A DNA stretch of 61,678 nucleotides, taken from contig CALVSP010000002.1 in NCBI GenBank assembly GCA_944359065.1, positions 1 through 61,678 of the forward strand, written 5' to 3'. Below are positions 15,398 to 31,118 of the stretch, one piece after another. Position numbers and translations under genes: made by a program. The notes beneath the pieces are model-generated. The model was not told the origin of the DNA. It did no database searches and was given only the letters and a program-made list of their open reading frames with translations. This DNA is from an uncultured Bacilli bacterium (GTDB lineage: Bacteria > Bacillota_I > Bacilli_A > RF39 > UBA660). How positions within the stretch are numbered: the stretch's first letter is position 1; each line of letters begins with the position of its first letter.

Positions 15398-16098
15398 TGA
15401 TTTAATTCCGCAATCATTTCATTATATTTTGCCGATAAATCTTCATTTTTAAAATTGATTGTATCGTTATTAATATACCAATTATTTTTATTTTCCGTTA
15501 AAAATGCTAATACTTCTTGTTCTTTTTCAATTAATGCAACGAAATTATCGACACTTTCACCAATAGTTTCTTTTTTCTTGTTTATTTCTTTTTCTTTAGC
15601 AAAATCAAAACTTTTATATAAATTAACATATGAATCTTCTAAATTTTCATTTACTATATAAGCCATAATAGTTTCTTCTTTTAAATATGATGAAATTTCT
15701 GCTTCTAAATTTAAAATATTTTGTTTTGTTTTCGTTAAATATTCATTACTTTCTTTAAAACTAGGTCCATCATTTTTGAAATTTTCGACCGTAAGTATAG
15801 AATAAGTTTCATCATCGTTTAAAATATTAGTAAAATCAAGTATTTTATCAAACAAATCTCGCAAATAATCTTTAGCGCAGCCTTCGACAATGGCATAACC
15901 ATCATCGGTTTCAATTTTATTTAATTTAGTATATATAGCATCAAAATCATATTGTTCAGCATAAATTAATGAATAAACCTCGTTAATTTCATTTCTTAAT
16001 TGGTGTTCTTTTAAAAATTGGCTGATAATTAAAAATGCTATAATCCCTACTAAAATTACTAAAAATATATTTATTCCTATCTTTACTTTTTTATTCAT
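15394..16098 (-). CDS. N-terminally anchored hypothetical protein (paralog of 10683..11378)
   Basis: 234 aa, colinear with the 231-aa paralog. It overlaps both neighbouring genes, indicating an operon. Confidence 0.6.
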   Translation of the reverse strand: MNKKVKIGINIFLVILVGIIAFLIISQFLKEHQLRNEINEVYSLIYAEQYDFDAIYTKLNKIETDDGYAIVEGCAKDYLRDLFDKILDFTNILNDDETYSILTVENFKNDGPSFKESNEYLTKTKQNILNLEAEISSYLKEETIMAYIVNENLEDSYVNLYKSFDFAKEKEINKKKETIGESVDNFVALIEKEQEVLAFLTENKNNWYINNDTINFKNEDLSAKYNEMIAELNQ

Positions 16099-18265
16099 TT
16101 TTATCTCCTTCTAAAAATTTTTTTAATTCGTTAATCGATAATGGTTTTGAAAAGTAATATCCTTGAATGATGTCACAATTTAGTTTTTTCAAATAATCTA
16201 ATTGTTCTTTAGTTTCAACACCTTCTGCTGTCAATTGTAAATTTAAGGATTTACCTAACTTAGTAACATACTTTAAAATTTCTTTTCCTTTTTCTGTTTC
16301 ATCAATTATGAAACTACGGTCAATTTTAATTCCATCAATATCCATTGACTTTAACATTGAAATCGAAGAATAGCCTGTTCCAAAATCATCGACTAAAATT
16401 CTAAATTTGGCTTTTTTAATTTTTTTCATTACTTGTTTTATTACAGTATTATCAGATAATATAGTTCCTTCTGTAACTTCTAATTCTATTTCATCTTTTT
16501 TTATTTTATATTTATCCATTATTTCTTCATATTCTGATACTATGTTATATTGTTCGATTTTTTTTCTTGAAACATTGATTGACACTGGTCCTAAAAAAAT
16601 ATTTTCTTTTTTTAAATTACTGATTATTTTACAAACATTTTCAAAAACATACGAATCGATTGTCGTAATAAAACCAGTTTCTTCCGCAATAGGAATAAAT
16701 ACTGATGGACTAATAAAATGATTATTTTCTTTTAATCTTAATAACGCTTCCGCTCCTACCATTTTACTAGTTTTACAATCGAATTTTGGTTGCAAATATA
16801 TTTCTAACAAATTATTGTCAACTGCATTCATCAATTTATCTAATATATTTTTGCTTTCGACCATATCATAAACCATTTTATCTTCATAAATAGCATAAAA
16901 TATATTACGATCATTTTTTGCTATTTTCCAAGCAACGATTGCTTTATTTTCAGCAACTTCAAACTCTTCAGCGTAAAATGCTTCATATATACCAAATGTT
17001 GAAGTTAAGACAAAATCACTATTTTCTATTTTTATTTGTCTTATACTATTGTATATTTTGTTAATGTAAGAAAGAATCGTTTTTTCGCCGTGGTGTTTTA
17101 TGCAAATTAAATAATGATCAGCTGTTTTACGACAACTAAATCCATCTTTATTTACTTCAAATAAAATATTATATATTTTATTAAGTACTTCATTACTTGC
17201 ATCATAACCATATATTGTATTTAATAATTTAAAATTGTTAATGTCAAAAATTACTAAAGTTTTATTGCCATCTAATTTATTATATTCTTCTTTGAAACGT
17301 TCGTAAGAATAGCCACCGGTTAATTTATCCTTGTATATAGCATTATATAATTTTTTATTTTTAAAATGTAATATTAAAGATGTAGTTAAAAATATGATTA
17401 AAAATATGATTAATAAATATATTGATACTAATAAAGTTGAAGTCATTATTTCATTATAGATATTATCAATAGTTGTTACTGGAACAACAGTTAAAATATA
17501 CCAATCATTTATACCTAATGGTGTATAATACATCTGTTTATAAGAATCATTATAAAATAAAATTGTATCACTTTTAAGATTTTTAAAATCTTGTTCTAGC
17601 GTTAAAACTTGATTAATATTTTCTTTATCGGCATCTATCATCGCATCAAAAATATTATCAAATTCATAAAAACTAGTTGGATTATCAGATTTTAATATTT
17701 TGTTACCCTTACTATCAACTATGTAAGTATAACCATTACCATTAAATGAAGGTACTGATAATTTATTAACTAAATTATATAAATCATATGAATAAAAAAC
17801 TAACGCTTCTTTATTTTGAATACTTTCACCAATAAATATACTCATTTGATTATTGATAGGATCTTTATCTAATACTATGACACTATCTTTGTTTTCTAAT
17901 TCATCATAATAATTTTCATTTTTTATTTCGACTTTATCTTTTGTAATATAAATCGTTTTATCTCTTGCTACAATACCGACATTTTTGTAATTGTTAGTAT
18001 CATAAATATTCTGTAATAACGGAATTATTTCCTCATCTAAATTTTTAGATGACAAAGTTAGAGCAAGTTGTTTTACTAAATCTTGCTGTTTATTTATTTC
18101 ACTTGCAACTACTAATTTATTTTGATTACCAACTTCAGATAACATAATTTTTATCTGTTCATTTAATTTATTATTTAAATTGTTTGAATAAATACTAAAA
18201 CCAGTTAATATCAAAATAATAAGTAAACAAGAAATAATGATATATTTGATAAAGTTATTTTTCAT
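16091..18265 (-). CDS. Membrane sensor protein: extracytoplasmic (Cache-like) domain, degenerate GGDEF, EAL phosphodiesterase
   Basis: EAL motifs EALLR, DDFGTGYSS, KIDRSF and QGYYFSKP are present. The GGDEF position reads TADHY. The start is taken at MKNNF (18265). Confidence 0.8.
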   Translation of the reverse strand: MKNNFIKYIIISCLLIILILTGFSIYSNNLNNKLNEQIKIMLSEVGNQNKLVVASEINKQQDLVKQLALTLSSKNLDEEIIPLLQNIYDTNNYKNVGIVARDKTIYITKDKVEIKNENYYDELENKDSVIVLDKDPINNQMSIFIGESIQNKEALVFYSYDLYNLVNKLSVPSFNGNGYTYIVDSKGNKILKSDNPTSFYEFDNIFDAMIDADKENINQVLTLEQDFKNLKSDTILFYNDSYKQMYYTPLGINDWYILTVVPVTTIDNIYNEIMTSTLLVSIYLLIIFLIIFLTTSLILHFKNKKLYNAIYKDKLTGGYSYERFKEEYNKLDGNKTLVIFDINNFKLLNTIYGYDASNEVLNKIYNILFEVNKDGFSCRKTADHYLICIKHHGEKTILSYINKIYNSIRQIKIENSDFVLTSTFGIYEAFYAEEFEVAENKAIVAWKIAKNDRNIFYAIYEDKMVYDMVESKNILDKLMNAVDNNLLEIYLQPKFDCKTSKMVGAEALLRLKENNHFISPSVFIPIAEETGFITTIDSYVFENVCKIISNLKKENIFLGPVSINVSRKKIEQYNIVSEYEEIMDKYKIKKDEIELEVTEGTILSDNTVIKQVMKKIKKAKFRILVDDFGTGYSSISMLKSMDIDGIKIDRSFIIDETEKGKEILKYVTKLGKSLNLQLTAEGVETKEQLDYLKKLNCDIIQGYYFSKPLSINELKKFLEGDKNE

Positions 18266-18328
18266 TAGTACCACCATTATTATTATATCATAGTTTAAAA
18301 AAAAGAAGTATGCATTTTTACTCCTTTT

Positions 18329-18889
18329 TTAACAATGACCGCCAAGACTTTCAAAATAAGAATTTATATACTGCATCGATATATTTATGTCATTATAGTT
18401 GATAATATCATTTATTTCTTTTATATATTCATATTTACAATTTGGACATTCAAAAATTCCTGTTGAAATTTGATTATCAGTTATATATTTAGTTATTGTT
18501 ATTTCATATTCTTCATTACCAACATAACAATATCTTCCTAATGAAGTACTAATAACTTTAATACTACAATAATTGTATATTAAATAAAATATTGAAAATA
18601 TTAATAATGATAATAAAATTATTCCTATAATTTTTAATATTTTAATTTTTGTTCTGGCTAATTTTTCTGTGTTACTTGTTTTAACAAATTCTTTATCATT
18701 TTCTACTAGTTCATCTAGACTAATTTTTAATATGTTAGATATAATTTTTGCCATATATAAATCAGGGGTTGTTTCATCTAACTCCCATTTAGAAATCGTC
18801 TGTCTTGTAACATTTAATTTACTTGCTAAATCCTCTTGTGATAGATTATTTATTTTTCTTAATTTAGAAATATTTTTTCCAATACACAT
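18329..18889 (-). CDS. XRE-family HTH regulator with C-terminal TM segment
   Basis: The HTH is NLSQEDLASKLNVTRQTISKWE. The start at ATG 18889 is preceded by AGGAGA. Confidence 0.7.
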   Translation of the reverse strand: MCIGKNISKLRKINNLSQEDLASKLNVTRQTISKWELDETTPDLYMAKIISNILKISLDELVENDKEFVKTSNTEKLARTKIKILKIIGIILLSLLIFSIFYLIYNYCSIKVISTSLGRYCYVGNEEYEITITKYITDNQISTGIFECPNCKYEYIKEINDIINYNDINISMQYINSYFESLGGHC

Positions 18890-18990
18890 TTTATCTCCTA
18901 CTTTCTTCTTTAAGTATATCATTTTTAATAATTATATCTACCAATTTTCATTAACACATTGTCTAAAATAGTTAACATAACAAAAAAAGT

Positions 18991-19875
18991 TTAATTTCTT
19001 AAACTTTCGATTCTTTCTTTAGATAAGCCAGTTACTTTACTTATCGTTTCTAAATCCATTTTTAATTCTAACATTTTTTTTGCATTTTCTATTTTTGTTT
19101 GTTCGATACCTTGAGTAATTCCTTCAGATAAGCCTTGTTGTTTTCCTTTTGCAATTCCTTCCAATAAACCTTGTTGTTTGCCTTGATTAAGCCCTTTTTC
19201 ATACATTACTTCTTCATATTGTTTTTGTTCTTCTTCGCGACTTATCCATTCTACTACAAACTTATCATTATTTGCTTTTATTACTTCTTCTTTAAAATCA
19301 CTCACTATATCACTCTTTTCCGATAACTCTTCTAATTCTTGTTTATCCATATCTAACATTATCAACGCTTCTTCACCTTGGGTAAACTTCTTACCATTAT
19401 TATAATAGTTTTTTATGTATTTGTCTATACCTACATTATATATTTTTATGTAATCTGTTAACTCTATTTTATTTATCTTATCATATAATGTGTAGATACT
19501 TCTTGTATATTTACTATTATAAAAATTTAAGTTTACTTGAACTATCGAATAACCTATTTTATATTTATTTCCTCTTTCCGTATTTTCACTAGCTAATTTA
19601 AAGATATAATGTAAATTCCTTATCATTACTTCTTCACTATAATTAGTGTTTAATTCGACATTGATTATTTCATCTTTTGTCTTAACTAATAAATCTAATC
19701 TCTGACCACGTATTTTATAATGATCTTGAATTAAATTAGGATTTAGAATTTCTAATTCTACTATTTTTTTATCTAAAATGGGTTCTAAAATAGCTATTAG
19801 GAATTCTTTTTTTACTGCTGCATACATAAACACTGGTTCATGTTTAGCAGTATAAAATTTTGTTATTTTTATCAT
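18991..19875 (-). CDS. Rpn-family recombination-promoting nuclease / putative transposase (PD-(D/E)XK)
   Basis: 294 aa. The N-terminal nuclease core includes RLDLLVKT...INVELN. The C-terminal QQGLLEGIAKGKQQGLSEGITQGIEQ repeats are typical of this family. Confidence 0.7.
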   Translation of the reverse strand: MIKITKFYTAKHEPVFMYAAVKKEFLIAILEPILDKKIVELEILNPNLIQDHYKIRGQRLDLLVKTKDEIINVELNTNYSEEVMIRNLHYIFKLASENTERGNKYKIGYSIVQVNLNFYNSKYTRSIYTLYDKINKIELTDYIKIYNVGIDKYIKNYYNNGKKFTQGEEALIMLDMDKQELEELSEKSDIVSDFKEEVIKANNDKFVVEWISREEEQKQYEEVMYEKGLNQGKQQGLLEGIAKGKQQGLSEGITQGIEQTKIENAKKMLELKMDLETISKVTGLSKERIESLRN

Positions 19876-19953: not shown

Positions 19954-21690
19954 TCATTTATCTATTTTTATTCCTAATTCTTTTAACTGTTTTTCATCAA
20001 CGATATTTGGACATTCACTCATTAAATCATTAGCACTAGCTGTCTTAGGAAATGCAATAACATCTCTTATGTTTTCTGTATTAGTTAATAACATTACTAA
20101 TCTATCTAATCCTAAAGCTAAACCACCATGAGGAGGAGTACCATATTTTAATGCTTCAACAAAGAATCCGAATTTTTCTTTAATTTGTTCCTCGGTTAAT
20201 TCTAATGCTTCAAACATTTTCTTTTGAACATCTTGATTATGAATTCTAATACTTCCTCCACCAGCTTCATATCCATTGATAACAATATCATAAGCTTTAG
20301 AATAACAATTAGCTTTATCAGTTAATAATTTATCAATATCACTATCTTTTGGAGCTGTAAAAGGATGATGACAAGCTACATATCTATTTTCTTCTTCACT
20401 ATATTCAAAAGATGGAAAATCAACAACCCATAATAATTCATAATTATCACTTATTAGATTTAATTTTTTGCCTAAATTTAATCTTAAAGCACCTAATGCT
20501 TGTTTAACGATTGATTTTTTATCAGATATTATTAAAACTAAATCATTATTTTCTAAATTTAATTTAGATTTTAATTCATTTAATTCTTGGTCCGTTATAA
20601 CTTTAGCAATACTACCACTAATTTCATTATCAATTTTTAAATATGCTAAACCTTTTGCTTTATAAGTTTTAATAAAATCAGTTAATTTATCAATATCTTT
20701 TCTAGAAAATTTATCAGCGCTATCTTTAACAACTAAACAATTAATAATACCATTATTATTAATTACATCTTTAAATATACTAAACTCAGTATTTTTAAAA
20801 ATATCAGTTATATCATTAATCTTCATATCAAATCTTAAATCAGGTTTATCAGATCCATAATAATTTATAGCATCATCATATTTCATTCTTCTTAATGGTA
20901 ATTTAATATCGATATCTTTTATTTGCTTAAATACATAAGCAATTAATCCTTCAACAGTAGTCATAACATCATCTTCAGTTACAAAACTCATTTCTAAATC
21001 CACTTGCGTAAATTCTGGTTGTCGATCAGCTCTTAAATCTTCATCTCTAAAACACTTAGCAATTTGAAAATATCTTTCCATACCCCCGACCATTAATAAT
21101 TGTTTAAATATTTGTGGTGATTGTGGTAAAGCATAAAACTTACCATTAAATATACGAGATGGCACTAAATAATCTCTCGCACCTTCAGGTGTACTTTTAC
21201 ATAAAATTGGTGTTTCTATTTCTAAAAAATTTAATTTATTTAAGTACTCTCTAATAGCAAAAGTAATTTTATGTCTTGCTTCTAACTTTTCTTTTAATTC
21301 TTTTCTTCTTAAGTCTAAGTATCTATATTTTAATCTTGTATCTTCTAAAGCTGTTGTATCATTTAAATTAAAAGGTAAATCGATACTAGTATTTAATACT
21401 TCTAATTCATTAATAATAACTTCAATATCCCCCGTTAATAAGTTTTTATTTTTACTTTCTCTTTCCGTTATAGTTCCTTCTACTTTAATAACATACTCAT
21501 TTTTTAAAGATTCTGCCAAATCATAAAATTTATTATCTGGTTTAACTACTAATTGAATAATTCCGCTTCTATCTCTTAAATCAATAAATATTAAACCACC
21601 TAAATTTCTTTTTTTCGCAACCCAACCATATAAAGTTACTACTTCACCTATATTTTTAATATTAAAATCTGTACTATTATTTACTTTCAT
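19954..21690 (-). CDS. aspS: Aspartate--tRNA ligase
   Basis: 578 aa with an N-terminal OB fold and class II motifs ([31 protein letters not shown]). Confidence 0.95.
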
Positions 21691-21691
21691 A

Positions 21692-21880
21692 ATTCCTCCT
21701 TAATTAAAAAAATTCTATAAATATAAGGGCGAAATATCGCGGTGCCACCTTATTTCATAGAATTCTATGCTCTTAAAATCTTTAACGGGATTAACCGATT
21801 ATTTTTTAGTTTGCTGTCTTTCTATATATTTCATAACTGATTTCCACCCGCCATCAGCTCTCTAAATAATTAATATATAT
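21692..21880 (-). promoter_or_regulatory. T-box riboswitch leader (Asp specifier) upstream of aspS
   Basis: On the minus strand, AGAGAG stem I starts at about 21863. A GAC-A triplet lies at 21818-21815. The T-box sequence GGTGGCACCGCG is at 21749-21738, followed by a hairpin and T-run. Confidence 0.75.
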
Positions 21881-21926
21881 ACTCTTTCAAACAAATATTA
21901 AATATATTGTATCACATTTATAAATC

Positions 21927-22108: not shown

Positions 22109-22127
22109 AGATTACTTTAGTTTTTTT
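22102..22127 (+). terminator. Rho-independent terminator of the small plus-strand unit
   Basis: AAACTAAAG-ATTA-CTTTAGTTT followed by TTTT. It overlaps the stop of the convergent 74-aa ORF. Confidence 0.6.
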
Positions 22128-22336
22128 AATTGTTTATTAGCATCATAAGTCATTTTGCCGGATATTAAAGCATTACCAACCATTAAAGCTCCTGCAAAAT
22201 ATCTTATAGTAGGTTCTTGAGAAGTTAAAACACCACTTGCAATACCTGCACTCATTAAAGCAAAAGAAGAGGTAGCTAAAACACCTAAATTTCTACTTAA
22301 TCTTAATAAACCTTTTTCAGTTTGAATTTCATTCAT
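22112..22336 (-). CDS. Small hypothetical membrane protein
   Basis: 74 aa with two Gly/Ala-rich hydrophobic segments. Confidence 0.45.
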   Translation of the reverse strand: MNEIQTEKGLLRLSRNLGVLATSSFALMSAGIASGVLTSQEPTIRYFAGALMVGNALISGKMTYDANKQLKKLK

Positions 22337-22384: not shown

Positions 22385-24940
22385 TCAAATATTTTCTTCT
22401 CTTATCGCTTCTAAAATATTTTCTTTTTTAATTCTTATTGTAGCATACCACATACTTATTAAAACTATAATAAATACACCAAATATAGCTATTAATATAC
22501 TTCCATATGGTATTAACATACTATCAAATGTTACTATACCATTAAATGATAAATGGAATAAATAAATAATTATAAATGATACTGGTAAACCATATAATAA
22601 TGATTTTAATCCAAAGAATAAGCATTCAAACAACATCATTTTATTAAATCCTTTAGGAGTCAAACCTATACTTCTTAATACTGCAAATTCTTTTTTTCTT
22701 AAAGCTATACTTGTATTAATAGTATTTATTACACTTGTTACTCCTATTAAAGTTACTAAACTAATAAAACCATATAATAATAATTTAATAACAATAACTA
22801 TATTAGATAATAATTGCAATTCTTTTTTAATATTAACAGTATATACATTAACATCATCAGTTAAGATATTTTCTTTACTTTCACTATCTAATAATTTATC
22901 AAATTCATCATAATTATCAGCTAATAAATACATTGATGCAAAATTAATATCATCACCTTTTAGTTTATTATATGTATTACTATCTATTATAATTGTAAAT
23001 GAAAACATATTAGTATTTTCTATACCAAATGGTAATATATCTGTCATATAAATGTTTTCTAATTTATATTTATCTTTTTCAGAAATATTAAATTCTAATG
23101 CTTTTATTTCATTAAATATAGTCATTTTTACTTGTTTCCTTGAATTAGAACTATAATCTATACTATTATAAACATTTAATAAAATAGGACGATTTGAATT
23201 TAAACCTATTTGTTTTTTATATTCTTCATAAGATTTATCATCTAAACATAAAAGATTAATACTAATTTCTACTTGATGTTCAAATGAATAATTTTCTAAA
23301 ATCTCTTTAGTAAAATATTTTTCATTCATTTCTACAGCAAAATTAAGTTCTTTTATTATACTATATTTTTTAATACCGTCTACTTTTAAAACTTGATTAA
23401 TAATAGAATCTATACTTTCTTTATTATTACCAGAAAAACTAGCAGCATATTCATATTGTGGTAGTTCAGTAAAATCATAAGCACTTGTTACTCCATATTT
23501 TAATAAACTACTAAATGATACAAATAATACAATACTTATAAATAATGAAATAATAGTTATACGATATTTTTTCTTGTTTCTCTTCATATTTTTATAAGCT
23601 ATTTCGCCTTCAACACCAAATAATTTAACAATTTTAGGTGTTTTTAATTTTTTAGATTTTATTTTAATATCATCATTTAATCTAATAGCTTCAATAGGAC
23701 TTACTTTACTAGCTCTTTTAGCAGGTAAAAATGCTGATACTAATATTGTTATTATCATAAATATTATTGGTATAATAACAAATAAAGGATAAGTTGCTAA
23801 AGCAAGTGGAAAATCAAATATATTAGGTAATAATTTATTAACAATCATTAAGACTATTCCAATACCTAAATAAGCTGAAGCAACACCTAATGGTATACCA
23901 ATTATACCAACTATGAATGCTTCAAAAAATACAGTATGTCTTAATTGTTTTCTAGTTGCGCCAATACTTGAAAATAAACCAAATTGTTTTTTTCTTTCCA
24001 TTACTGAAATAGCAAAGGAATTATAAATAACAATTATACAAGCAATGGATACCAAAGATAAAATTATAATTATTATATAAGCCATTGAATCCAACATATT
24101 AGTGTAATTAGATACTCCTGAAAGTGCTAATAAATTATCATTGTAATTTACTTGTTCATAATAAGCATAATCTTCTGAAACTGATTTATAACCTAAATTT
24201 TGAGCAATAATTTCACTATTTTTATATGTATCTTTAACATTTTTATAATTAATATAAACTGTTAGTATTTCACTTGGCTCAGTAACAGTAAATGCACTAT
24301 AACCAGGATCTTCATATTTTTCTAATATATCTCTTTTTATAATACCAACAATAGTATATTCTTTCTCTTTAGTATCAACTAAATGTTCCTCTTTAATAAA
24401 TTCTTCTTTTTCTTCATCATAGTATAATGCTATTGGTGTATCTTCTAATAAAGTATTATTATCATCTACTCTTTTACCAATATTTAATTTTATTTTATCT
24501 CCAACATTTAATTTTACTTCTCCATTAGTTTCTAAATGTTCAGATATAATAATTTCATTTTCATTATTAGGTAATCTCCCTTCAATTAATTTTAAGTCTT
24601 CTAAATATTCTTTAGATGCAGTTAAAACATTAATATAAGGTTTATATTCATTTGTAATACCATCATATAATGAATATCCTAAACTAGATTTATATTTATA
24701 TTTTGATACATTATCATTTTTGGATATGAAATCTAATTTAGATTTTTCTAATTCAATAGCTACATGATGATCACCACTATTTTCAATGATCATTTTAACA
24801 GAATTATCTCTTACTGTTGAAAATAATAAGCCGATACCTACCATCAAAGCCGTTGATAGAATAATTCCTATTATTGTTACAATAGTTCTTTTTTTATTTG
24901 ATTTTAAGTGTTTAATTGTTAAATTATTTAATATTTTCAT
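22385..24940 (-). CDS. ABC transporter permease, double FtsX/MacB-type (paralog 1)
   Basis: About 851 aa with two FtsX modules, each with a large extracytoplasmic domain. The ATG at 24940 is preceded by GGAGGG. Confidence 0.8.
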   Translation of the reverse strand: MKILNNLTIKHLKSNKKRTIVTIIGIILSTALMVGIGLLFSTVRDNSVKMIIENSGDHHVAIELEKSKLDFISKNDNVSKYKYKSSLGYSLYDGITNEYKPYINVLTASKEYLEDLKLIEGRLPNNENEIIISEHLETNGEVKLNVGDKIKLNIGKRVDDNNTLLEDTPIALYYDEEKEEFIKEEHLVDTKEKEYTIVGIIKRDILEKYEDPGYSAFTVTEPSEILTVYINYKNVKDTYKNSEIIAQNLGYKSVSEDYAYYEQVNYNDNLLALSGVSNYTNMLDSMAYIIIIILSLVSIACIIVIYNSFAISVMERKKQFGLFSSIGATRKQLRHTVFFEAFIVGIIGIPLGVASAYLGIGIVLMIVNKLLPNIFDFPLALATYPLFVIIPIIFMIITILVSAFLPAKRASKVSPIEAIRLNDDIKIKSKKLKTPKIVKLFGVEGEIAYKNMKRNKKKYRITIISLFISIVLFVSFSSLLKYGVTSAYDFTELPQYEYAASFSGNNKESIDSIINQVLKVDGIKKYSIIKELNFAVEMNEKYFTKEILENYSFEHQVEISINLLCLDDKSYEEYKKQIGLNSNRPILLNVYNSIDYSSNSRKQVKMTIFNEIKALEFNISEKDKYKLENIYMTDILPFGIENTNMFSFTIIIDSNTYNKLKGDDINFASMYLLADNYDEFDKLLDSESKENILTDDVNVYTVNIKKELQLLSNIVIVIKLLLYGFISLVTLIGVTSVINTINTSIALRKKEFAVLRSIGLTPKGFNKMMLFECLFFGLKSLLYGLPVSFIIIYLFHLSFNGIVTFDSMLIPYGSILIAIFGVFIIVLISMWYATIRIKKENILEAIREENI

Positions 24941-24999
24941 ATTTTGTTCCCTCCACAATAATTGTATTAAATTATTATTACAATTAAATGACTAAAGTC

Positions 25000-25015
25000 G
25001 TGACAATTTTGTCAT
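25000..25015. promoter_or_regulatory. BceR-like response-regulator box 1 (TGACA-N4-TGTCA)
   Basis: GTGACAATTTTGTCAT lies between permease 1 and the first small-ORF promoter. Confidence 0.45.
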
Positions 25016-25031
25016 ATATGTTAATTTATAA

Positions 25032-25060
25032 TTGATTTTTGTATAAAACTAATTTATAAT
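25032..25060 (+). promoter_or_regulatory. Promoter of small ORF copy 1
   Basis: TTGATT, 17 nt, TATAAT. Confidence 0.55.
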
Positions 25061-25137
25061 TAATGTTGAGATATATTTAATTTAAGTTAGGTGTTTTACT
25101 CTATTTTTAATTTATTTTAAGAATGGAGGTGATTTCT

Positions 25138-25224
25138 ATGAATATAAAATTTATAGAAAGGAATTTAAATGCAATTAATTGTAGCATTTGCTATGATTGT
25201 TCTTTACACAATCCTAGTCCTTAA
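25138..25224 (+). CDS. Unannotated 28-aa Cys-containing peptide, copy 1 (MNIKFIERNLNAINCSICYDCSLHNPSP)
   Basis: The RBS GGAGGTGA lies 5 nt upstream of the ATG. The ORF has its own promoter and is followed by two hairpins. Copy 2 is identical. Confidence 0.5.
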   Translation: MNIKFIERNLNAINCSICYDCSLHNPSP

Positions 25225-25246
25225 AAATAAGGACTAATCTTAAATG

Positions 25247-25277
25247 AAAACACCGATTCTTCTTTGAACGGTGTTTT
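25247..25277. terminator. Bidirectional hairpin terminator (copy 1)
   Basis: AAAACACCG, loop, CGGTGTTTT. The stem is conserved and the loop varies among the 3 copies. Confidence 0.55.
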
Positions 25278-25409
25278 CTCAAACAAACAATCTAGAGAAA
25301 ACATTTAACATCGCAAAATTAAATGTATCTCTTTTTTAATATATGAAATAATTCATATCTATATACATTTTACTATAGATTAATTAGTTTGTCAACAATT
25401 AATTTATAG

Positions 25410-25438
25410 TTGATTTTTGTATAAAATTAATTTATAAT
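25410..25438 (+). promoter_or_regulatory. Promoter of small ORF copy 2
   Basis: TTGATT, 17 nt, TATAAT. Confidence 0.55.
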
Positions 25439-25514
25439 TAATATTGAGATATATTTAATTAAGTTAGGTGTTTTACTCTATTTTTAATTTATTTTAAGAA
25501 TGGAGGTGATTTCT

Positions 25515-25601
25515 ATGAATATAAAATTTATAGAAAGGAATTTAAATGCAATTAATTGTAGCATTTGCTATGATTGTTCTTTACACAATCCTAGTCCTTA
25601 A
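25515..25601 (+). CDS. Unannotated 28-aa Cys-containing peptide, copy 2 (identical)
   Basis: 87/87 nt identical to copy 1, with the same RBS and terminators. Confidence 0.5.
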   Translation: MNIKFIERNLNAINCSICYDCSLHNPSP

Positions 25602-25623
25602 AAATAAGGACTAATCTTAAATG

Positions 25624-25655
25624 AAAACACCGATTCAACTTAAGAACGGTGTTTT
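25624..25655. terminator. Bidirectional hairpin terminator (copy 2)
   Basis: AAAACACCG, loop, CGGTGTTTT. Confidence 0.55.
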
Positions 25656-25769
25656 CTTTACCCAAACAAATAGAGAAAACACTTAACATCGGAAATTAAA
25701 TGTATCTCTTTTTTTAATATATGAAACAATTCATATCTATATACATTTTACTATAGATTAATTATTTTG

Positions 25770-28256
25770 TCAAATACTTTCTTTTCTAATTATATCTAAA
25801 ATGTTTTCTTTTTTTATTTTCTTAGTAGCATACCACATTGTCATTAATACTATTATAAATATACCTAATATTGCAATTATTATACTTGTATATGGTATTA
25901 TTAAACTAGTTTTTACCATTTTATTAAAAGATAAATGAAATAAATAAGTTATAATTAACGATACCGATATACCATATATTAATGATTTTAATCCAAATAA
26001 TAAACATTCAAATATAATCATTTTATTAAATCCAAAAGGAGTTAATCCAATACTTCTTAACATAGCAAATTCTTGTTTTCTTAAAGTAACACTCATATTA
26101 ATTGTATTAATAACACTAGTAACACCGATTAAGGTTATTAAAATAACAAAACCATATAATATTATTTTATATGCTAGTAAAGTATTGTATTGTTCCTGCA
26201 TCGTTTGTTTAATATTATCAGTTCTAATACTAACATCTAAAATATCTTCATGTAATAATTCATCAACTTTAGTAAAATTATCACCATTTAAAGTTAATAT
26301 TATATTATATTCATCAGTATTTATTTTATTAAATGTATCTTCATCAACAATTAAAGTATATGTATAAATCCAAGGTTCAACATTTTCTATTTTAATATCA
26401 GACATATAAATATTATCTAAAACAAAATTATTATTATTATCATCATATATATTTAAACGACTAATATCTTTATATAAATTAAATCCTTTAATATCTTTAT
26501 TTATTCTTCCTTCTTCAACCAAATAATTTAATAAAATAGGTCTGTCATCAATATTAAGTTGTTTTTTAATTTGTTCGTATGTTTTATCATCTAATATATA
26601 TAAATGAACATATTGTTTAAGACTACTACTTATTCCAAATTCATTTATTACTTCATCAGTATAATAATCTAGATTAAAATCAGATTCTAATGTTTTTAAT
26701 TCAATTAAACTATTTTGCTTTACTCCCTCAACATTTAAAACTTGATTAATAATTTCATCTATTTTATTTTTATCTTTACCTGATAATCTAACAAAATAAT
26801 CATAACTTGGAATATCCATAGCATCTTTACTAGATTTAATTGTATAGTTTAAAAACGAACTAAATGAAACATATAAAACAATACTTAAAAATAAAGATAA
26901 AATAGTTATATTATATTTTTTCTTATTTCTCTTCATATTTTTGTAAGCAATCTCTGCTTCAATACCTAATTTTTGAATTAATTTAGGTGTTCTAAACTTT
27001 TTAATTTTAATTTCATTATTTAATCTAATTGCTTCAATAGGACTTACTCTACTTGCTTTTTTAGAAGGATAATAAGCTGCTAATGCAATAGTTAAAATAA
27101 TAAAAATAAGGGAAATCAACATATATAAAGGATATATTGATAATTCTAACGGAATAGATAAACTATTAACTAATAATTTATTAACAACTGATAAAATAAT
27201 ATTAATACCAATAAAAGATAAAATTAATCCTAATACAATACCAATAATACCTACTACAAAAACTTCAAAAAATATTGTATATCTTAATTGTTTTTTAGTA
27301 GCACCAATACTTGAGAATAACCCAAATTGTTTTATTCTTTCGGTAACTGATATAGCAAAAGCATTATAAATTACAATAACACTTGCAACTGTAATTAATA
27401 TTAAAATAATTAATAATATTGCAATTGATCCTTTAATAAAATTATTATCTTCACCAATTCCATAATAATAAAGTAAACTATCATTATATTTTAAATTACT
27501 TTCATAATTTAAATTTTTTATAATTAATTCACTATTTTCATATGTTTTAAAAACATTTTTATATCTTACATAGACACTTAATAAGTCGATAGGTTCAGAA
27601 ATAGTAAATACGCTATACCCTGGATTAAAGTAGTCTTCATATATATCTTTTTCAACTATTCCAACTATTTTATATTCTTTATATTCTACATTTATTAATT
27701 GCTCTTCTTTTGTAACTTCATAATTACCATCACTTAAATATTTATATTCGACTATATAAGCACTTTCACCTAATAATTTTCCATCACATTCTCTTTGTCC
27801 AACATTTAATTTAATAGTATCGCCAATGTTTAAATTAATATTTCCTTCAGTTTTAATATTGTTAGAAATAATAACTTCATTTTCATTGTTAGGTAATCTT
27901 CCTTCAATTAATTTTAAATCATCTAAATAACTTTTTGATGATGTTAAAACTTGTAGATATTTTTTATTTTGCAATCCATCATATAATGAATACCCTAAAC
28001 TAGATTTATATTTATATTCTAAAACACTGTCATTTTTAGATATAAAATCTAAATCCTCTTTTTTTATATTTATTTTTGCATTGTAATCTCCATTGTACTT
28101 TATTGCTGATTGAATGCCATTATCTCTAAGACTAGAAAATAATAAACCCAATTCGGTCATCAAAAAAGTAGCTAACATAATTCCGATGATTGTTAAAATA
28201 GTTCTTTTTTTATTCGCTTTTAAATGTTTAAAAGTCAAAATATTTAATATTTTCAT
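25770..28256 (-). CDS. ABC transporter permease, double FtsX/MacB-type (paralog 2)
   Basis: 828 aa, colinear with paralog 1 but substantially diverged. Confidence 0.8.
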   Translation of the reverse strand: MKILNILTFKHLKANKKRTILTIIGIMLATFLMTELGLLFSSLRDNGIQSAIKYNGDYNAKINIKKEDLDFISKNDSVLEYKYKSSLGYSLYDGLQNKKYLQVLTSSKSYLDDLKLIEGRLPNNENEVIISNNIKTEGNINLNIGDTIKLNVGQRECDGKLLGESAYIVEYKYLSDGNYEVTKEEQLINVEYKEYKIVGIVEKDIYEDYFNPGYSVFTISEPIDLLSVYVRYKNVFKTYENSELIIKNLNYESNLKYNDSLLYYYGIGEDNNFIKGSIAILLIILILITVASVIVIYNAFAISVTERIKQFGLFSSIGATKKQLRYTIFFEVFVVGIIGIVLGLILSFIGINIILSVVNKLLVNSLSIPLELSIYPLYMLISLIFIILTIALAAYYPSKKASRVSPIEAIRLNNEIKIKKFRTPKLIQKLGIEAEIAYKNMKRNKKKYNITILSLFLSIVLYVSFSSFLNYTIKSSKDAMDIPSYDYFVRLSGKDKNKIDEIINQVLNVEGVKQNSLIELKTLESDFNLDYYTDEVINEFGISSSLKQYVHLYILDDKTYEQIKKQLNIDDRPILLNYLVEEGRINKDIKGFNLYKDISRLNIYDDNNNNFVLDNIYMSDIKIENVEPWIYTYTLIVDEDTFNKINTDEYNIILTLNGDNFTKVDELLHEDILDVSIRTDNIKQTMQEQYNTLLAYKIILYGFVILITLIGVTSVINTINMSVTLRKQEFAMLRSIGLTPFGFNKMIIFECLLFGLKSLIYGISVSLIITYLFHLSFNKMVKTSLIIPYTSIIIAILGIFIIVLMTMWYATKKIKKENILDIIRKESI

Positions 28257-28314: not shown

Positions 28315-28330
28315 GTGACATTTTTGTCAT
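28315..28330. promoter_or_regulatory. BceR-like box 2
   Basis: GTGACATTTTTGTCAT upstream of permease 2. Confidence 0.45.
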
Positions 28331-28331
28331 A

Positions 28332-28483
28332 TTAAATAACAAAACACCGATCAACTTAAGAACGGTGTTTTCTCAAAGTTTAAACAAAGGAAACACTTAA
28401 TCTTCCGAATTAAATGTATCTCTTTTTTTAATATATGAAATAATTCATATCTATGTACATTTTACTATAAATTAATTAGTTTG
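28332..28483 (+). repeat. Third, partial copy of the tandem unit (terminator hairpin + tail only)
   Basis: It aligns with 25241-25396 and 25618-25769. It lacks the promoter and small ORF. Confidence 0.85.
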
Positions 28484-29167
28484 TCAAATATTATTTTTCT
28501 CATCACTAATTATTTTACCATCTTCTAAAGTAATTATTCTATCAGCGCATAACGCTAAATTATGGTCATGAGTAATCATAATAATAGTTTGCTTATATTT
28601 TTGATTAGATAGTTTTAATAATTCGATAATTTCTCTACCTGCTTTACTATCCAAATTACCAGTTGGTTCATCGGCTAATAATAACGCTGGTCTATTCATA
28701 AGGGCTCTTCCAATACTAACTCTTTGTTGTTGACCACCAGATAATTCATTAGGTAAATGATTTACTCTATTACTTAAACCTAAAGTATCTATTAATTCAT
28801 TTAAATATTTTTCATCAGGTTTTTTATTATCTAATAAAATAGGTAAAGTTATGTTTTCTTTAATATTTAAAATAGGAATCAAATTGTAAAATTGATAAAT
28901 TAACCCTACTTGACGACGACGGAAAATAGCTAAATTAGTTTCATTTAATTCATAAACGTCAACACCATCAACAAACACTTTACCACTAGTAGGATGATCG
29001 ACGCCACCTAAAATATGTAATAAAGTTGATTTTCCACTACCACTACTTCCAACAACAGCAATAAATTCACCTTTTTCAACTTTAAAACTTACATTATCTA
29101 ATGCTTTTACTAAAGTTTCACCTTTACCATAATTTTTACACAAATTTTCTACTCTTAATATTTCCAT
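28484..29167 (-). CDS. ABC transporter ATP-binding protein (MacB/BceA-like)
   Basis: Walker A GSSGSGKST, signature LSGGQQQR, Walker B LLLADEPT. Confidence 0.9.
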   Translation of the reverse strand: MEILRVENLCKNYGKGETLVKALDNVSFKVEKGEFIAVVGSSGSGKSTLLHILGGVDHPTSGKVFVDGVDVYELNETNLAIFRRRQVGLIYQFYNLIPILNIKENITLPILLDNKKPDEKYLNELIDTLGLSNRVNHLPNELSGGQQQRVSIGRALMNRPALLLADEPTGNLDSKAGREIIELLKLSNQKYKQTIIMITHDHNLALCADRIITLEDGKIISDEKNNI

Positions 29168-29227: not shown

Positions 29228-29243
29228 ATTACAAATTTGTCAT
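29228..29243. promoter_or_regulatory. BceR-like box 3 (TGACA-N4-TGTAA on minus strand)
   Basis: ATTACAAATTTGTCAT upstream of the ATPase gene, overlapping the HK stop. The flanking 45 bp are shared with box 1. Confidence 0.45.
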
Positions 29244-31098: not shown

Positions 31099-31114
31099 TA
31101 TGACAATTTTGTAA
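31099..31114. promoter_or_regulatory. BceR-like box 4 upstream of the response-regulator gene
   Basis: ATGACAATTTTGTAAT. Confidence 0.4.
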
Positions 31115-31118
31115 TTTT

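What the first reader, a model, noticed from the sequence alone, without database searches (positions are those of the whole stretch)
25021..25769. Tandem 377-bp duplication encoding two identical, fully equipped cassettes for an unannotated 28-aa Cys-containing peptide inside a Bce-like resistance locus
Each unit carries TTGATT-17-TATAAT, a leader of about 70 nt and a GGAGGTGA RBS. The ORF encodes MNIKFIERNLNAINCSICYDCSLHNPSP, and the two copies are identical (87/87 nt). A hairpin spans the stop codon (TAGTCCTT-N6-AAGGACTA) and is followed by a second terminator hairpin. The cassettes are on the plus strand, wedged between the two minus-strand FtsX permease paralogs of an RR-HK-ABC module. 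The peptide has no signal or double-glycine leader, and no maturase is nearby. Possible roles are a leaderless bacteriocin- or signal-like peptide, a regulator of the transporter/TCS, or a small cytosolic C-x2-C-x2-C metal-binding peptide. This is below the ORF-track size threshold and is probably unannotated.
Basis: partly seen in the sequence, partly recalled or inferred. Interest (0 to 1): 0.65.

Follow-up and report, generated by a model that had tools for sequence, protein, structure and literature searches.

The report
Tandem small-ORF / antisense-RNA repeat module
The 377-bp duplication is real, but it is two copies of a repeat found at several genome sites in a clade of uncultured gut bacteria: a tightly folded mini-mRNA (28 codons) facing a small RNA gene across a shared terminator, as in type I toxin-antitoxin pairs, and its 'cysteine motif' comes from an RNA hairpin, not a conserved peptide.

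Summary
In detail: a 2.0-copy, 377-bp tandem repeat at 25021-25773 (94% identity) with identical 87-nt ORFs, and the promoter, SD, stop-codon hairpin and terminator as described.

The interpretation changes in four ways.
1. The unit belongs to a repeat family in about 15-20 uncultured gut Bacilli/Mycoplasmatota MAGs. It has 3-6 copies per genome, often in tandem. It occurs in this TCS-ABC locus but also between PFOR and a P-type ATPase gene, before rpsD, and next to prmC.
2. Each unit is a convergent gene pair. A plus-strand sORF mRNA (fold z = -8.1, compensatory changes in four helices) faces a roughly 115-nt minus-strand sRNA with its own TTGACA-17-TAAAAT promoter. The two share one bidirectional terminator.
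3. The ORF stays open (28-29 aa, perfect SD) in most copies, but pN/pS is about 1.1. The Cys residues are not conserved. Every 'conserved' residue lies in an RNA helix.
4. No protein, Pfam, Rfam, plasmid or phage match was found.

Best reading: a par/Fst-like (type I TA-like) sORF-mRNA/antisense-sRNA module that is amplified by unequal crossing-over. It is not a locus-specific Cys peptide. The peptide is not hydrophobic and toxicity is untested, so family membership is not established. Transcription evidence is weak, resting on a few metatranscriptome contigs.

The parts
25000..25014 (.). Inverted-repeat response-regulator-type box GTGACAATTTTGTCA, serving the divergent permease-2 promoter. 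It is not part of the repeat unit.
   Evidence: Sequence. Similar boxes at 28315-28329, 29228-29242 and 31100-31115. Box-to-unit distance varies 17-68 nt in relatives.
25032..25060 (+). Promoter of sORF mRNA, unit 1 (TTGATT-17-TATAAT)
   Evidence: Promoter scan 10/12; hexamers conserved in 27 aligned copies.
25067..25282 (+). Structured sORF mRNA, unit 1 (predicted 5' end about 7 nt after the -10; 3' end at the terminator)
   Evidence: MFE -65.6 kcal/mol, z = -8.09. On 39 copies 89.4% of cells are paired vs 39-51% in slid controls, and 14 pairs have compensatory change. GU 450 vs AC 83.
25125..25132 (+). Shine-Dalgarno GGAGGTGA, paired in the fold with the upstream anti-SD ACUCU(A/G)U
   Evidence: Helix 3 (columns 34-39 with 79-84) has AU to GC and UG to CG changes.
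25138..25224 (+). 28-codon ORF, unit 1 (MNIKFIERNLNAINCSICYDCSLHNPSP)
   Evidence: A homologous 28-29-aa ORF is kept in about 34 of 50 near-full copies. pN/pS 1.08.
25215..25236 (+). Hairpin enclosing the TAA stop codon
   Evidence: Sequence. Helix 8 is 90% paired with 2 compensatory pairs.
25246..25278 (.). Bidirectional intrinsic terminator shared by sORF mRNA 1 and sRNA 1. Its 5' arm AAAACACC can alternatively pair with the leader GGUGUUUU (25090-25097).
   Evidence: RNAalifold chooses the long-range pairing; all 8 pairs are invariant. A G-U in the group C copies fits only the minus strand.
25241..25360 (-). Predicted sRNA 1, about 115-120 nt: hairpin 1, single-stranded AAAAAGAGAUA, hairpin 2, terminator
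   Evidence: z = -5.29. 92% of cells paired vs 42-57% slid. Core pairs of hairpin 2 alternate U-G/U-A with 0 unpaired, which would be C-A mismatches on the plus strand.
25367..25395 (-). Promoter of sRNA 1 (TTGACA-17-TAAAAT)
   Evidence: 11/12 in the scan; nearly invariant in all copies.
25410..25438 (+). Promoter of sORF mRNA, unit 2
25445..25660 (+). Structured sORF mRNA, unit 2 (SD 25502-25509, ORF 25515-25601, stop hairpin 25592-25613)
25623..25656 (.). Bidirectional terminator, unit 2. The loop differs from unit 1.
25618..25738 (-). Predicted sRNA 2
25745..25773 (-). Promoter of sRNA 2. The -35 TTGACA contains the TGA stop codon of permease 1 (25770-25772).
28339..28495 (-). Cassette-less third copy: sRNA promoter (-35 28482-28487, -10 28459-28464; the -35 overlaps the ATPase stop codon), sRNA, and terminator 28341-28372. 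The sORF cassette is deleted.

Best explanation
Each 377-bp unit is a compact convergent gene pair. A consensus-like plus-strand promoter makes a roughly 215-nt, heavily folded mRNA with a perfect SD and a 28-codon ORF. In the fold the SD is masked by an upstream anti-SD, and the AUG, the ORF centre and the stop codon each sit in a hairpin. A second, stronger promoter on the minus strand makes a roughly 115-nt sRNA. Both RNAs end at one bidirectional terminator, so their 3' ends (about 33 nt, with a copy-specific loop) are perfectly complementary. This is the layout of par/Fst-type type I toxin-antitoxin loci. I infer that the sRNA acts on the sORF mRNA through this overlap and holds it translationally silent or unstable, and that the intramolecular SD masking does the same in cis. 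The unit is one member of a repeat family that persists and multiplies in intergenic regions of a clade of uncultured gut Bacilli/Mycoplasmatota. Arrays grow, shrink and homogenise by unequal crossing-over or gene conversion, and the window's two near-identical copies are one such event. The position between the FtsX paralogs is a favoured site, not a functional coupling to the transporter. Shown: the repeat family and its contexts; strand-specific structure conservation of both RNAs; ORF retention without amino-acid constraint. Inferred: that both promoters fire, that the two RNAs interact, and that the module behaves as a TA-like or selfish element.
For: Family and dispersal: 65 distinct nhmmer hits in the fetched loci. 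Exact-pattern scans of 185,579 species genomes hit only 15 and 26 stretches, all in related MAGs. Contexts include TCS-ABC loci, PFOR|P-type ATPase, rpsD and prmC. Convergent promoters score 10/12 and 11/12. Plus-strand RNA: z = -8.1; 89% paired vs 39-51% in slid controls; compensatory changes in the SD:anti-SD, start-codon, intra-ORF and stop-codon helices; GU far exceeds AC. Minus-strand RNA: z = -5.3; 92% paired vs 42-57%; wobble pattern valid only on the minus strand. The ORF, SD and AUG are kept in most copies, with indels in multiples of 3. Array turnover: window vs L011 permease pS is 0.074, yet their sORFs differ at 8 of 28 residues, and the window's type recurs at other array positions in L001 and L012. 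sRNA-only derivatives exist (window 28339-28495; L005). RNA: contigs in three chicken-gut RNA libraries cover the unit but not the flanking permeases at 93% or higher. One adapter-flanked insert runs from 3 nt before the AUG to the terminator. The par architecture (convergent promoters, bidirectional terminator, intramolecular SD sequestration, 5' helix) is as described in PMC7472228.
Against: The peptide is not hydrophobic and has no TM segment, unlike Fst/Ldr and nearly all type I toxins. pN/pS of about 1.1 argues against a peptide whose sequence matters. A second region of sRNA-mRNA complementarity over the translation start (the DRa/DRb equivalent) is not convincingly present: duplex z ranges from -0.03 to -3.1, and the cognate TIR has median rank 6 of 44. 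No toxicity data exist. Transcription evidence consists of low-depth, direction-less contigs. There is no match to any Rfam toxin/antitoxin family. The element is absent from plasmids, phages and viral contigs, so there is no mobile-element link. Units are retained at orthologous sites across species, which also fits a host function.
Confidence: 0.45

Rival explanations
1. Host regulatory or insulating module. The sRNA lies in the same orientation as the flanking genes, with its promoter at the stop codon of the upstream gene. On this reading it is a 3'-end-derived trans-acting regulator, or simply part of the upstream gene's terminator region. The antisense sORF RNA acts as its sponge or partner. 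The ORF is tolerated or used only to tune RNA folding.
For: The sRNA half is the most conserved and most widespread part: 26 vs 15 pattern hits, and sRNA-only copies exist. Units sit at orthologous sites in species whose permeases are only 64-96% identical. The unit often lies beside response-regulator boxes at two different kinds of locus. The terminator serves the upstream gene.
Against: No target of the sRNA was identified. The box-to-unit distance is not fixed. Some units lie at sites without any box (L082, L085, L092, L101). The perfect 9-nt SD plus AUG plus kept frame are hard to explain if translation is irrelevant.
Confidence: 0.2
2. Selfish or neutral repeated DNA (MITE-like or recombination-generated intergenic repeat) whose promoters, ORF and hairpins are carried along without function.
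For: Multi-copy, tandem arrays, mosaic partial copies and decayed copies with lost SD, AUG or frame. A 13-nt inverted repeat AATTAATYTATAG lies near both ends. The upstream gene's stop codon is often supplied by the element.
Against: Compensatory base-pair changes on a defined strand in both halves show selection at the RNA level. There are no target-site duplications and no transposase. It is absent from plasmids, phages and viral contigs. About 75% nt identity is kept between species whose permeases share only about 65% amino-acid identity.
Confidence: 0.12
3. One reading: the 28-aa Cys-containing peptide is the functional product (leaderless bacteriocin or signal, transporter/TCS regulator, or C-x2-C-x2-C metal binder) tied to the Bce-like locus.
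For: A strong SD and a kept ORF. Enrichment of units in the TCS-ABC locus of the closest relatives. The first unit lies next to a regulator box.
Against: The Cys residues are not conserved; group B has 0-1 Cys. pN/pS is 1.08-1.37 vs 0.18-0.44 for the neighbouring gene. The conserved residues map to RNA helices. Units occur at unrelated loci. No maturase or dedicated exporter is present, and there is no signal peptide.
Confidence: 0.06
4. RNA-level toxin whose mini-ORF must be translated but whose peptide is irrelevant (CreT-like tRNA or ribosome sequestration), held in check by the antisense sRNA.
For: Perfect SD plus AUG. The AGG codon is invariant at position 8 in 27/27 ORFs although AGG is rare (1.4 per 1000; 23 of 420 Arg codons). 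A stable hairpin sits at the ORF end. Neutral amino-acid evolution with a kept frame. The defining features of CreT come from PMC8501985.
Against: There is only one rare Arg codon, not two in a row. GAAAGG also lies in conserved helices, which explains its invariance. There is no CRISPR or CreA context and no data on the tRNA-Arg(CCU) supply.
Confidence: 0.08

Closest known systems
par(pAD1) / Fst-RNA II family of type I toxin-antitoxin loci (Enterococcus, Staphylococcus, Streptococcus, Lactobacillus)
   Same: Convergent promoters; about 200-nt toxin-type mRNA with a roughly 30-codon ORF facing a short sRNA; one bidirectional intrinsic terminator giving complementary 3' stem-loops; SD sequestered by an intramolecular helix; a helix involving the extreme 5' end; chromosomal copies lying between paralogous transporter operons (PMC7472228).
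   Different: The peptide here has no hydrophobic TM helix, no PXXXG motif, and no Trp plus charged tail. It evolves neutrally. The DRa/DRb-type second complementarity is not demonstrable. The sRNA is longer (about 115 vs 65 nt). No Rfam hit.
E. coli LDR (long direct repeat) ldr/rdl loci and other tandem type I TA arrays
   Same: [quoted passage not shown] 2002, cited in PMC7472228; own knowledge for the tandem arrangement).
   Different: In ldr/rdl the antisense RNA overlaps the 5' leader divergently, not the 3' end. LdrA is a hydrophobic membrane toxin.
CreT RNA toxins (CreTA)
   Same: Small RNA with a strong SD, AUG, a short ORF whose peptide is irrelevant, rare Arg/Ile codons and a stable downstream stem-loop (PMC8501985).
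   Different: CreT has two consecutive rare codons, a 3-6-codon ORF, and is repressed by a CRISPR-like CreA guide with Cascade. Here there is one rare AGG in a 28-codon ORF, no CRISPR context, and an antisense sRNA partner.
BceRS-BceAB-type peptide-antibiotic sensing/resistance modules (context only)
   Same: OmpR-type RR, HK, ABC ATPase and FtsX-type permease(s) in one locus, with inverted-repeat boxes before each transcription unit.
   Different: The permeases are 828/857 aa with a MacB-like N-terminal domain and match no BceB model. The HK has an outer loop of about 65 aa rather than a minimal one. The repeat unit is not specific to this locus.

Membership tests
par/Fst-type type I toxin-antitoxin locus | Convergent promoters for a toxin mRNA and a small antisense RNA | tested here: met
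   TTGATT-17-TATAAT (+) and TTGACA-17-TAAAAT (-) in each unit, conserved in all aligned copies. These are consensus matches only; firing is not shown.
par/Fst-type type I toxin-antitoxin locus | Shared bidirectional intrinsic terminator giving complementary 3' stem-loops | tested here: met
   GAAAACACCG-loop-CGGTGTTTTC lies between the two promoters, with T-runs on both strands. The stem is conserved and the loop is variable.
par/Fst-type type I toxin-antitoxin locus | Intramolecular helix sequestering the SD of the toxin mRNA | tested here: met
   The anti-SD:SD helix is 93.6% paired with compensatory AU/GC and UG/CG changes.
par/Fst-type type I toxin-antitoxin locus | Direct repeats (DRa/DRb) giving a second sRNA-mRNA complementarity over the translation start | tested here: inconclusive
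   RNAduplex finds collinear pairing, but z ranges from -0.03 to -3.1. The cognate TIR has median rank 6 of 44 against other TIRs.
par/Fst-type type I toxin-antitoxin locus | Toxin of about 30 aa with a hydrophobic TM helix, PXXXG, conserved Trp and a charged C-terminal tail | tested here: not met
   Peptides such as MNIKFIERNLNAINCSICYDCSLHNPSP and MVKKTIERINSNGINSYFYNYRILYDHSP have none of these (features).
par/Fst-type type I toxin-antitoxin locus | Toxicity of the ORF product and neutralisation by the sRNA | not testable with these tools
   Needs expression experiments.
Functional small protein / RiPP or bacteriocin precursor | Purifying selection on the amino-acid sequence and conserved Cys pattern | tested here: not met
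   pN/pS is 1.08 (1.3 within groups); changes per codon position are 30/33/18; Cys positions are replaced by Y/S/R/F. The control gene gives 0.18-0.44.
Functional small protein / RiPP or bacteriocin precursor | Maturase, dedicated exporter or immunity genes nearby; leader or signal sequence | tested here: not met
   The neighbours are a TCS, an ABC transporter, aspS, Tex, a Clp ATPase, MurT and similar. At other loci the neighbours are PFOR, a P-type ATPase and rpsD.
CreT-type RNA toxin | Strong SD plus AUG, two consecutive rare codons directly downstream, stable stem-loop after the mini-ORF | tested here: not met
   The SD, AUG and stem-loop are present. Only one rare codon (AGG, codon 8) is invariant, and there is no consecutive pair.
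MITE / non-autonomous transposable element | Terminal inverted repeats at the very ends, target-site duplications, insertion polymorphism | tested here: inconclusive
   A 13-nt inverted repeat AATTAATYTATAG lies near both ends but inside the promoters. No target-site duplication was seen at the junctions. Cassette presence/absence looks like internal deletion.
Known RNA families (Rfam 15) | Covariance-model match at or near the gathering score | tested here: not met
   Only a T-box and a tRNA elsewhere in the window. The best hit in the region is rli28 at 24.4 bits vs gathering score 45, E = 1.
BceRS-BceAB module (the locus around the repeat) | BceB-type permease and an intramembrane-sensing HK with a minimal outer loop | tested here: inconclusive
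   The permeases hit only FtsX/MacB-like/ADOP models far below cut-off. The HK outer loop is about 65 aa. The locus organisation and the boxes are Bce-like.

The most novel reading that the evidence does not exclude
The module is a new kind of RNA-centred toxin-antitoxin or addiction element. The plus-strand RNA needs to be translated (perfect SD, AUG, kept frame, invariant rare AGG codon, stop codon buried in a hairpin), but the peptide sequence is irrelevant. It would harm the cell by trapping ribosomes or a scarce tRNA. The convergent sRNA neutralises it through the shared terminator, whose copy-specific loop gives each unit its own cognate partner.
Probability: 0.1. Interest if true: 0.75.

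Novelty: new variant of a known kind. Interest (0 to 1): 0.5.

Why it matters
If the reading is right, this is an undescribed family of sORF-mRNA/antisense-sRNA modules in an uncultured, genome-reduced gut lineage (Candidatus Faecisoma relatives). Almost nothing is known about RNA regulation or toxin-antitoxin content in that lineage.

It also shows a par-type architecture paired with a non-hydrophobic, neutrally evolving ORF. That would widen what a type I-like module can be. Alternatively, it would show that such architectures serve other purposes.

Practically, it warns against reading 'Cys motifs' in AT-rich short ORFs as peptide features when G/C-containing codons are held in place by RNA stems. 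It also removes a tempting but unsupported link between a 'new peptide' and a peptide-antibiotic resistance-like transporter locus.

Tried and rejected
1. Peptide homology. Exact look-up of 10 variants in the protein collection found none. Pfam at E <= 10 found nothing.
2. Rfam at gathering score and at E <= 10 gave nothing meaningful.
3. Plasmid, phage and viral-contig searches gave no match, so no mobile-element link was found.
4. A hydrophobic 26-aa ORF antisense to the sORF (MLQLIAFKFLSINFIFIEITSILKIN) was considered as the 'real' toxin. It has no SD, is variable, and is absent from groups B and C, so it was rejected.
5. Minus-strand ORFs running through the terminator (...RCFHLRLVLIFKD) were considered. 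Their frame is not kept between copies, so they were rejected.
6. Attenuator or leader-peptide control of a downstream gene was considered. No co-oriented gene follows the unit in the window or in most relatives. The leader:terminator alternative pairing (GGUGUUUU:AAAACACC) is real in sequence but invariant, so it is untestable by covariation.
7. Control of the unit's promoter by the response-regulator box was considered. The spacing varies 17-68 nt and later units in an array lack a full box, so it is not supported.
8. RNA-seq gave no raw-read runs, only Logan contigs. At 80% likeness the lay-out is swamped by unrelated ABC ATPases.
9. sRNA-to-TIR pairing statistics were inconclusive.
10. My first permease pN/pS control used a wrong frame. 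It was redone correctly.
11. The metagenome-contig scan was not used, because the genome scans already gave 65 distinct copies.
Full report
OBSERVATION. The tandem repeat is real. TRF gives 25021-25773, period 377, 2.0 copies, 94% matches, score 1360. In the pairwise alignment the copies are identical from the 5'UTR through the ORF, the stop-codon hairpin and the 5' arm of the terminator. They differ mainly in the terminator loop and the spacer behind it. Read from the sequence, the features are:
- ORFs at 25138-25224 and 25515-25601 (87/87 nt).
- SD GGAGGTGA at 25125-25132 and 25502-25509.
- Hairpin TAGTCCTT-N6-AAGGACTA at 25215-25236, enclosing the TAA stop.
- Terminator at 25246-25278 and 25623-25656.
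- Promoter-like TTGATT-17-TATAAT at 25032-25060 and 25410-25438 (10/12).
The neighbours are as stated: two FtsX permeases, an ABC ATPase, an HK and an OmpR-type RR, all on the minus strand.

- The 3' part of each unit carries a better promoter on the minus strand, TTGACA-17-TAAAAT (11/12), at 25395-25367 and 25773-25745. In unit 2 its -35 hexamer contains the TGA stop of permease 1.
- A third copy of 'terminator plus 3' part', without the ORF cassette, lies between the ATPase and permease 1 (28339-28495). Again its -35 overlaps the stop codon of the upstream gene.
- The two permease genes are an old segmental duplication, about 75% identical at the nucleotide level.
- Four inverted-repeat boxes of the type TGACA-N5-TGT(C/A)A precede the RR, ATPase, permease 1 and permease 2 genes.

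THE UNIT IS A REPEAT FAMILY, NOT A LOCUS-SPECIFIC FEATURE. A permease-based search brought in 79 related loci, all from uncultured gut 'Bacilli/Tenericutes' MAGs. Candidatus Faecisoma is filed under Mycoplasmatota. DNA runs holding the window sequence are mostly chicken-gut metagenomes. The closest relatives carry 1-4 copies of the unit in front of the permease genes.

Exact-pattern scans of one genome for each of 185,579 species found the cassette in 15 stretches and the 3' part in 26, all in this clade. Several hits lie on other contigs of the same MAGs, in unrelated contexts:
- Between pyruvate:ferredoxin oxidoreductase and a P-type ATPase gene (L098-L100, L103-L106).
- Upstream of rpsD (L085, L092).
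- Between prmC and a 1416-aa gene (L082).
- Beside a sigma/anti-sigma pair (L101).

A profile search gave 65 distinct copies, including mosaic fragments and sRNA-only copies. This corresponds to about 3-6 copies at 2-3 loci per genome. Nothing was found in viral contigs, plasmids or phages. The usual arrangement is the same everywhere: the unit's 3' end abuts or overlaps the stop codon of a convergent gene, and its 5' end is divergent from the next gene.

The P-type ATPase genes next to units carry the same 16-mer box (ATGACAATTTTGTAAT) as the RR gene of the window. However, the box-to-unit distance varies from 17 to 68 nt, and other sites have no box. The box therefore belongs to the divergent gene, not to the unit.

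THE ORF IS KEPT OPEN BUT THE PEPTIDE IS NOT CONSTRAINED. Of about 50 near-full copies, about 34 keep a 28-29-codon ORF with the SD at the same spacing. A subgroup has 30-50-codon variants, and some copies have lost the SD, the AUG or the frame. The clear indels are multiples of three.

Yet pN/pS is 1.08 overall and 1.3-1.4 within the two main groups. The third codon position is the least variable, with minimum changes of 30/33/18. As a control, the adjacent permease gives pN/pS of 0.18-0.44 with third-position changes dominating.

The Cys residues are not conserved. The distant group reads MVKKTIERINSNGINSYFYNYRILYDHSP, with 0-1 Cys. The ORF uses rare codons (AGG 1.4, TGC 1.1, AGC 2.4, CAC 2.3 per 1000). 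None of ten variants is in the 15-billion-protein collection, and Pfam finds nothing. No maturase or dedicated export gene is nearby.

BOTH HALVES ARE CONSERVED AS RNA, ON OPPOSITE STRANDS. The plus-strand transcript 25067-25285 folds at -65.6 kcal/mol, against -34.1 +/- 3.9 for shuffles (z = -8.09). The window's fold was laid on 39 distinct copies, and the following was found:
- 89.4% of cells are paired, against 39-51% when partners are slid.
- 14 pairs have changes on both sides.
- 103 cells carry a change on both sides, against 42.9 +/- 7.0 in shuffles.

Compensatory changes fall in four helices:
- The anti-SD:SD helix (ACUCU(A/G)U with (A/G)(U/C)GGAG).
- The hairpin holding the AUG, which pairs codon 2 with codons 4-5 and so explains the 'hypervariable' N-terminus.
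- The hairpin in the middle of the ORF, GUAGC/GCUAU changing to GUUAU/AUAAC. These are the very codons that spell C-x2-C.
- The hairpin over the stop codon.

G-U cells outnumber A-C cells 450 to 83. So E7-R8 (GAAAGG), the Cys codons and the C-terminal S-P-stop are all stem nucleotides.

The leader GGUGUUUU (25090-25097) can also pair with the 5' arm of the terminator. RNAalifold prefers this pairing, but all eight pairs are invariant, so it cannot be tested by covariation.

For the 3' part, the minus-strand RNA (about 115 nt) has z = -5.3. Its structure is 92% paired on 34 copies, against 42-57% slid. In its central hairpin three pairs alternate between U-G and U-A with no unpaired cell. On the plus strand these would be C-A mismatches in most copies. 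The same holds for a G-U in the terminator of the group C copies. The 3' part is therefore conserved as a minus-strand RNA, placed exactly downstream of the TTGACA-17-TAAAAT promoter.

ANATOMY AND LIKELY MECHANISM. Each unit is bounded by its two promoters and holds two convergent transcription units that share one bidirectional terminator. The 3' ends of the two RNAs are therefore perfectly complementary over about 33 nt. The loop of that terminator is the most variable segment between copies.

This is the architecture of par(pAD1)/Fst-RNA II type I toxin-antitoxin loci: convergent promoters, a bidirectional terminator where the RNAs first meet, an intramolecular helix masking the SD, and a helix tying up the 5' end (PMC7472228). 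Tandem arrays of such cassettes are known from the E. coli LDR repeats (reference; own knowledge).

I therefore think the most likely working is an sORF mRNA kept silent by its own fold and by the convergent sRNA. I think it behaves as a persistent, self-amplifying intergenic module.

Three defining points of the family fail or remain open:
- The peptide is not hydrophobic (not met).
- A second complementarity over the translation start is statistically unconvincing.
- Toxicity is untested.
So it works like a par locus in layout, but I do not file it as a member.

EVOLUTION OF THE WINDOW'S ARRAY. The window and L011 are very close: permease pS is 0.074 and amino-acid identity is 96%. Yet the window has two MNIKF-type units where L011 has two MGSNT-type units. 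The MNIKF type is the third unit in L001 and the second in L012. Within a genome, neighbouring units tend to be identical. This is what unequal crossing-over and gene conversion in a repeat array produce. The '377-bp tandem duplication' is one recent event of that kind. sRNA-only remnants (window 28339-28495; L005) arise by internal deletion of the cassette.

TRANSCRIPTION. Only assembled contigs of RNA libraries were available. Three chicken-gut RNA-type runs hold pieces of the unit. On the closest relative L011:
- A 164-nt contig of X25, flanked by adapter sequence on both sides, matches 5297-5435 with one mismatch. It runs from 3 nt before the AUG to the 3' arm of the terminator.
- A 213-nt contig of X24 covers 5632-5842, which is the mRNA plus 34 nt beyond the terminator.
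- In X24, X25 and X32 the flanking permease genes have no cover at 93% or higher.
This fits abundant small transcripts. However, the contigs have low depth and no direction, and they could be favoured by the unit's multi-copy, conserved nature. I rate the evidence as weak.

RIVALS. Four alternatives remain.
- A host regulatory or insulating module, with the sRNA as a 3'-end-derived regulator and the terminator serving the upstream gene. It remains plausible (0.2) because the sRNA half is the more widespread part and units persist at orthologous sites.
- Neutral or selfish repeat DNA (0.12). It is contradicted by strand-specific compensatory evolution.
It is contradicted by the loss of Cys, pN/pS of about 1 and the unrelated loci.
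- A CreT-like RNA toxin that must be translated but whose peptide is irrelevant (0.08). It is suggested by the perfect SD, the invariant rare AGG codon (27/27) and the terminal stem-loop. It lacks the two consecutive rare codons that define CreT (PMC8501985), and GAAAGG is also explained by pairing.

VERDICT. The feature is a previously undescribed sORF-mRNA/antisense-sRNA repeat module with a par-like layout, in an uncultured gut lineage. I classify it as a new variant of a known kind, of moderate interest.

Noticed in passing
window 21722-21898 (-): T-box leader (Rfam RF00230, 108.7 bits) directly upstream of the aspartyl-tRNA synthetase gene 19954-21690.
   Followed up: no
window 25000-25014, 28315-28329, 29228-29242, 31100-31115: Four inverted-repeat boxes of the type TGACA-N5-TGT(C/A)A. 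There is one before each of the RR, ATPase, permease 1 and permease 2 genes, so every gene of the module seems to have its own regulator-dependent promoter. The promoter regions are about 65-83% alike (repeat family D9).
   Followed up: partly
L098, L099, L103, L104, L105, L106 (upstream of the 758-aa P-type ATPase gene): The exact 16-mer ATGACAATTTTGTAAT found before the RR gene of the window also precedes P-type cation ATPase genes in related species. This suggests the ATPase belongs to the same regulon.
   Followed up: partly
window 22385-24958 and 25770-28256: The two FtsX permease genes are diverged paralogs: about 75% nt identity in blocks and about 52% amino-acid identity across orthologs. 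More distant relatives (L005, L006, L008, L096) have a single permease, with the repeat unit between the HK and the ATPase instead.
   Followed up: partly
window 25770-25772 and 28484-28486; L100 7566-7573: The TGA stop codon of the upstream gene (permease 1, ABC ATPase, PFOR in L100) lies inside the -35 hexamer TTGACA of the sRNA promoter. Unrelated genes thus end inside the element, which points to extreme intergenic compaction or to insertion at gene ends.
   Followed up: partly
window 25380-25422 (junction of units 1 and 2): At each unit junction the two back-to-back promoters are flanked by an inverted repeat CTATAGATTAATT ... AATTAATTTATAG, about 12 nt apart. This could be an operator for an unknown DNA-binding protein or a recombination hot spot.
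   Followed up: no
window 25067-25082 vs 25320-25335: The 5' end of the sORF mRNA (GAGATATATTTAATTT) is the inverted complement of AAATTAAATGTATCTC in the 3' part, and nearly identical to the 5' arm of sRNA hairpin 2. All four variants seen at the mRNA 5' end are A-to-G changes, which keep pairing with U. The meaning is open: read-through fold-back, or sRNA strand invasion.
   Followed up: partly
window 18991-19875 and 18329-18922 (-): A PD-(D/E)XK 'transposase'-family ORF and an HTH_3 regulator lie just downstream of aspS. An EAL/GGDEF protein is at 16091-18277.
   Followed up: no
window 22112-22336 (-): A 74-aa ORF with a good SD directly downstream of permease 2, with no Pfam or NCBIfam match. 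It is rich in small and hydrophobic residues and may be a small membrane protein of the module.
   Followed up: no
window 50567-50679 and 51212-51324: An internal 113-nt direct repeat (80% identity) inside the 551-aa ORF 50489-52144.
   Followed up: no
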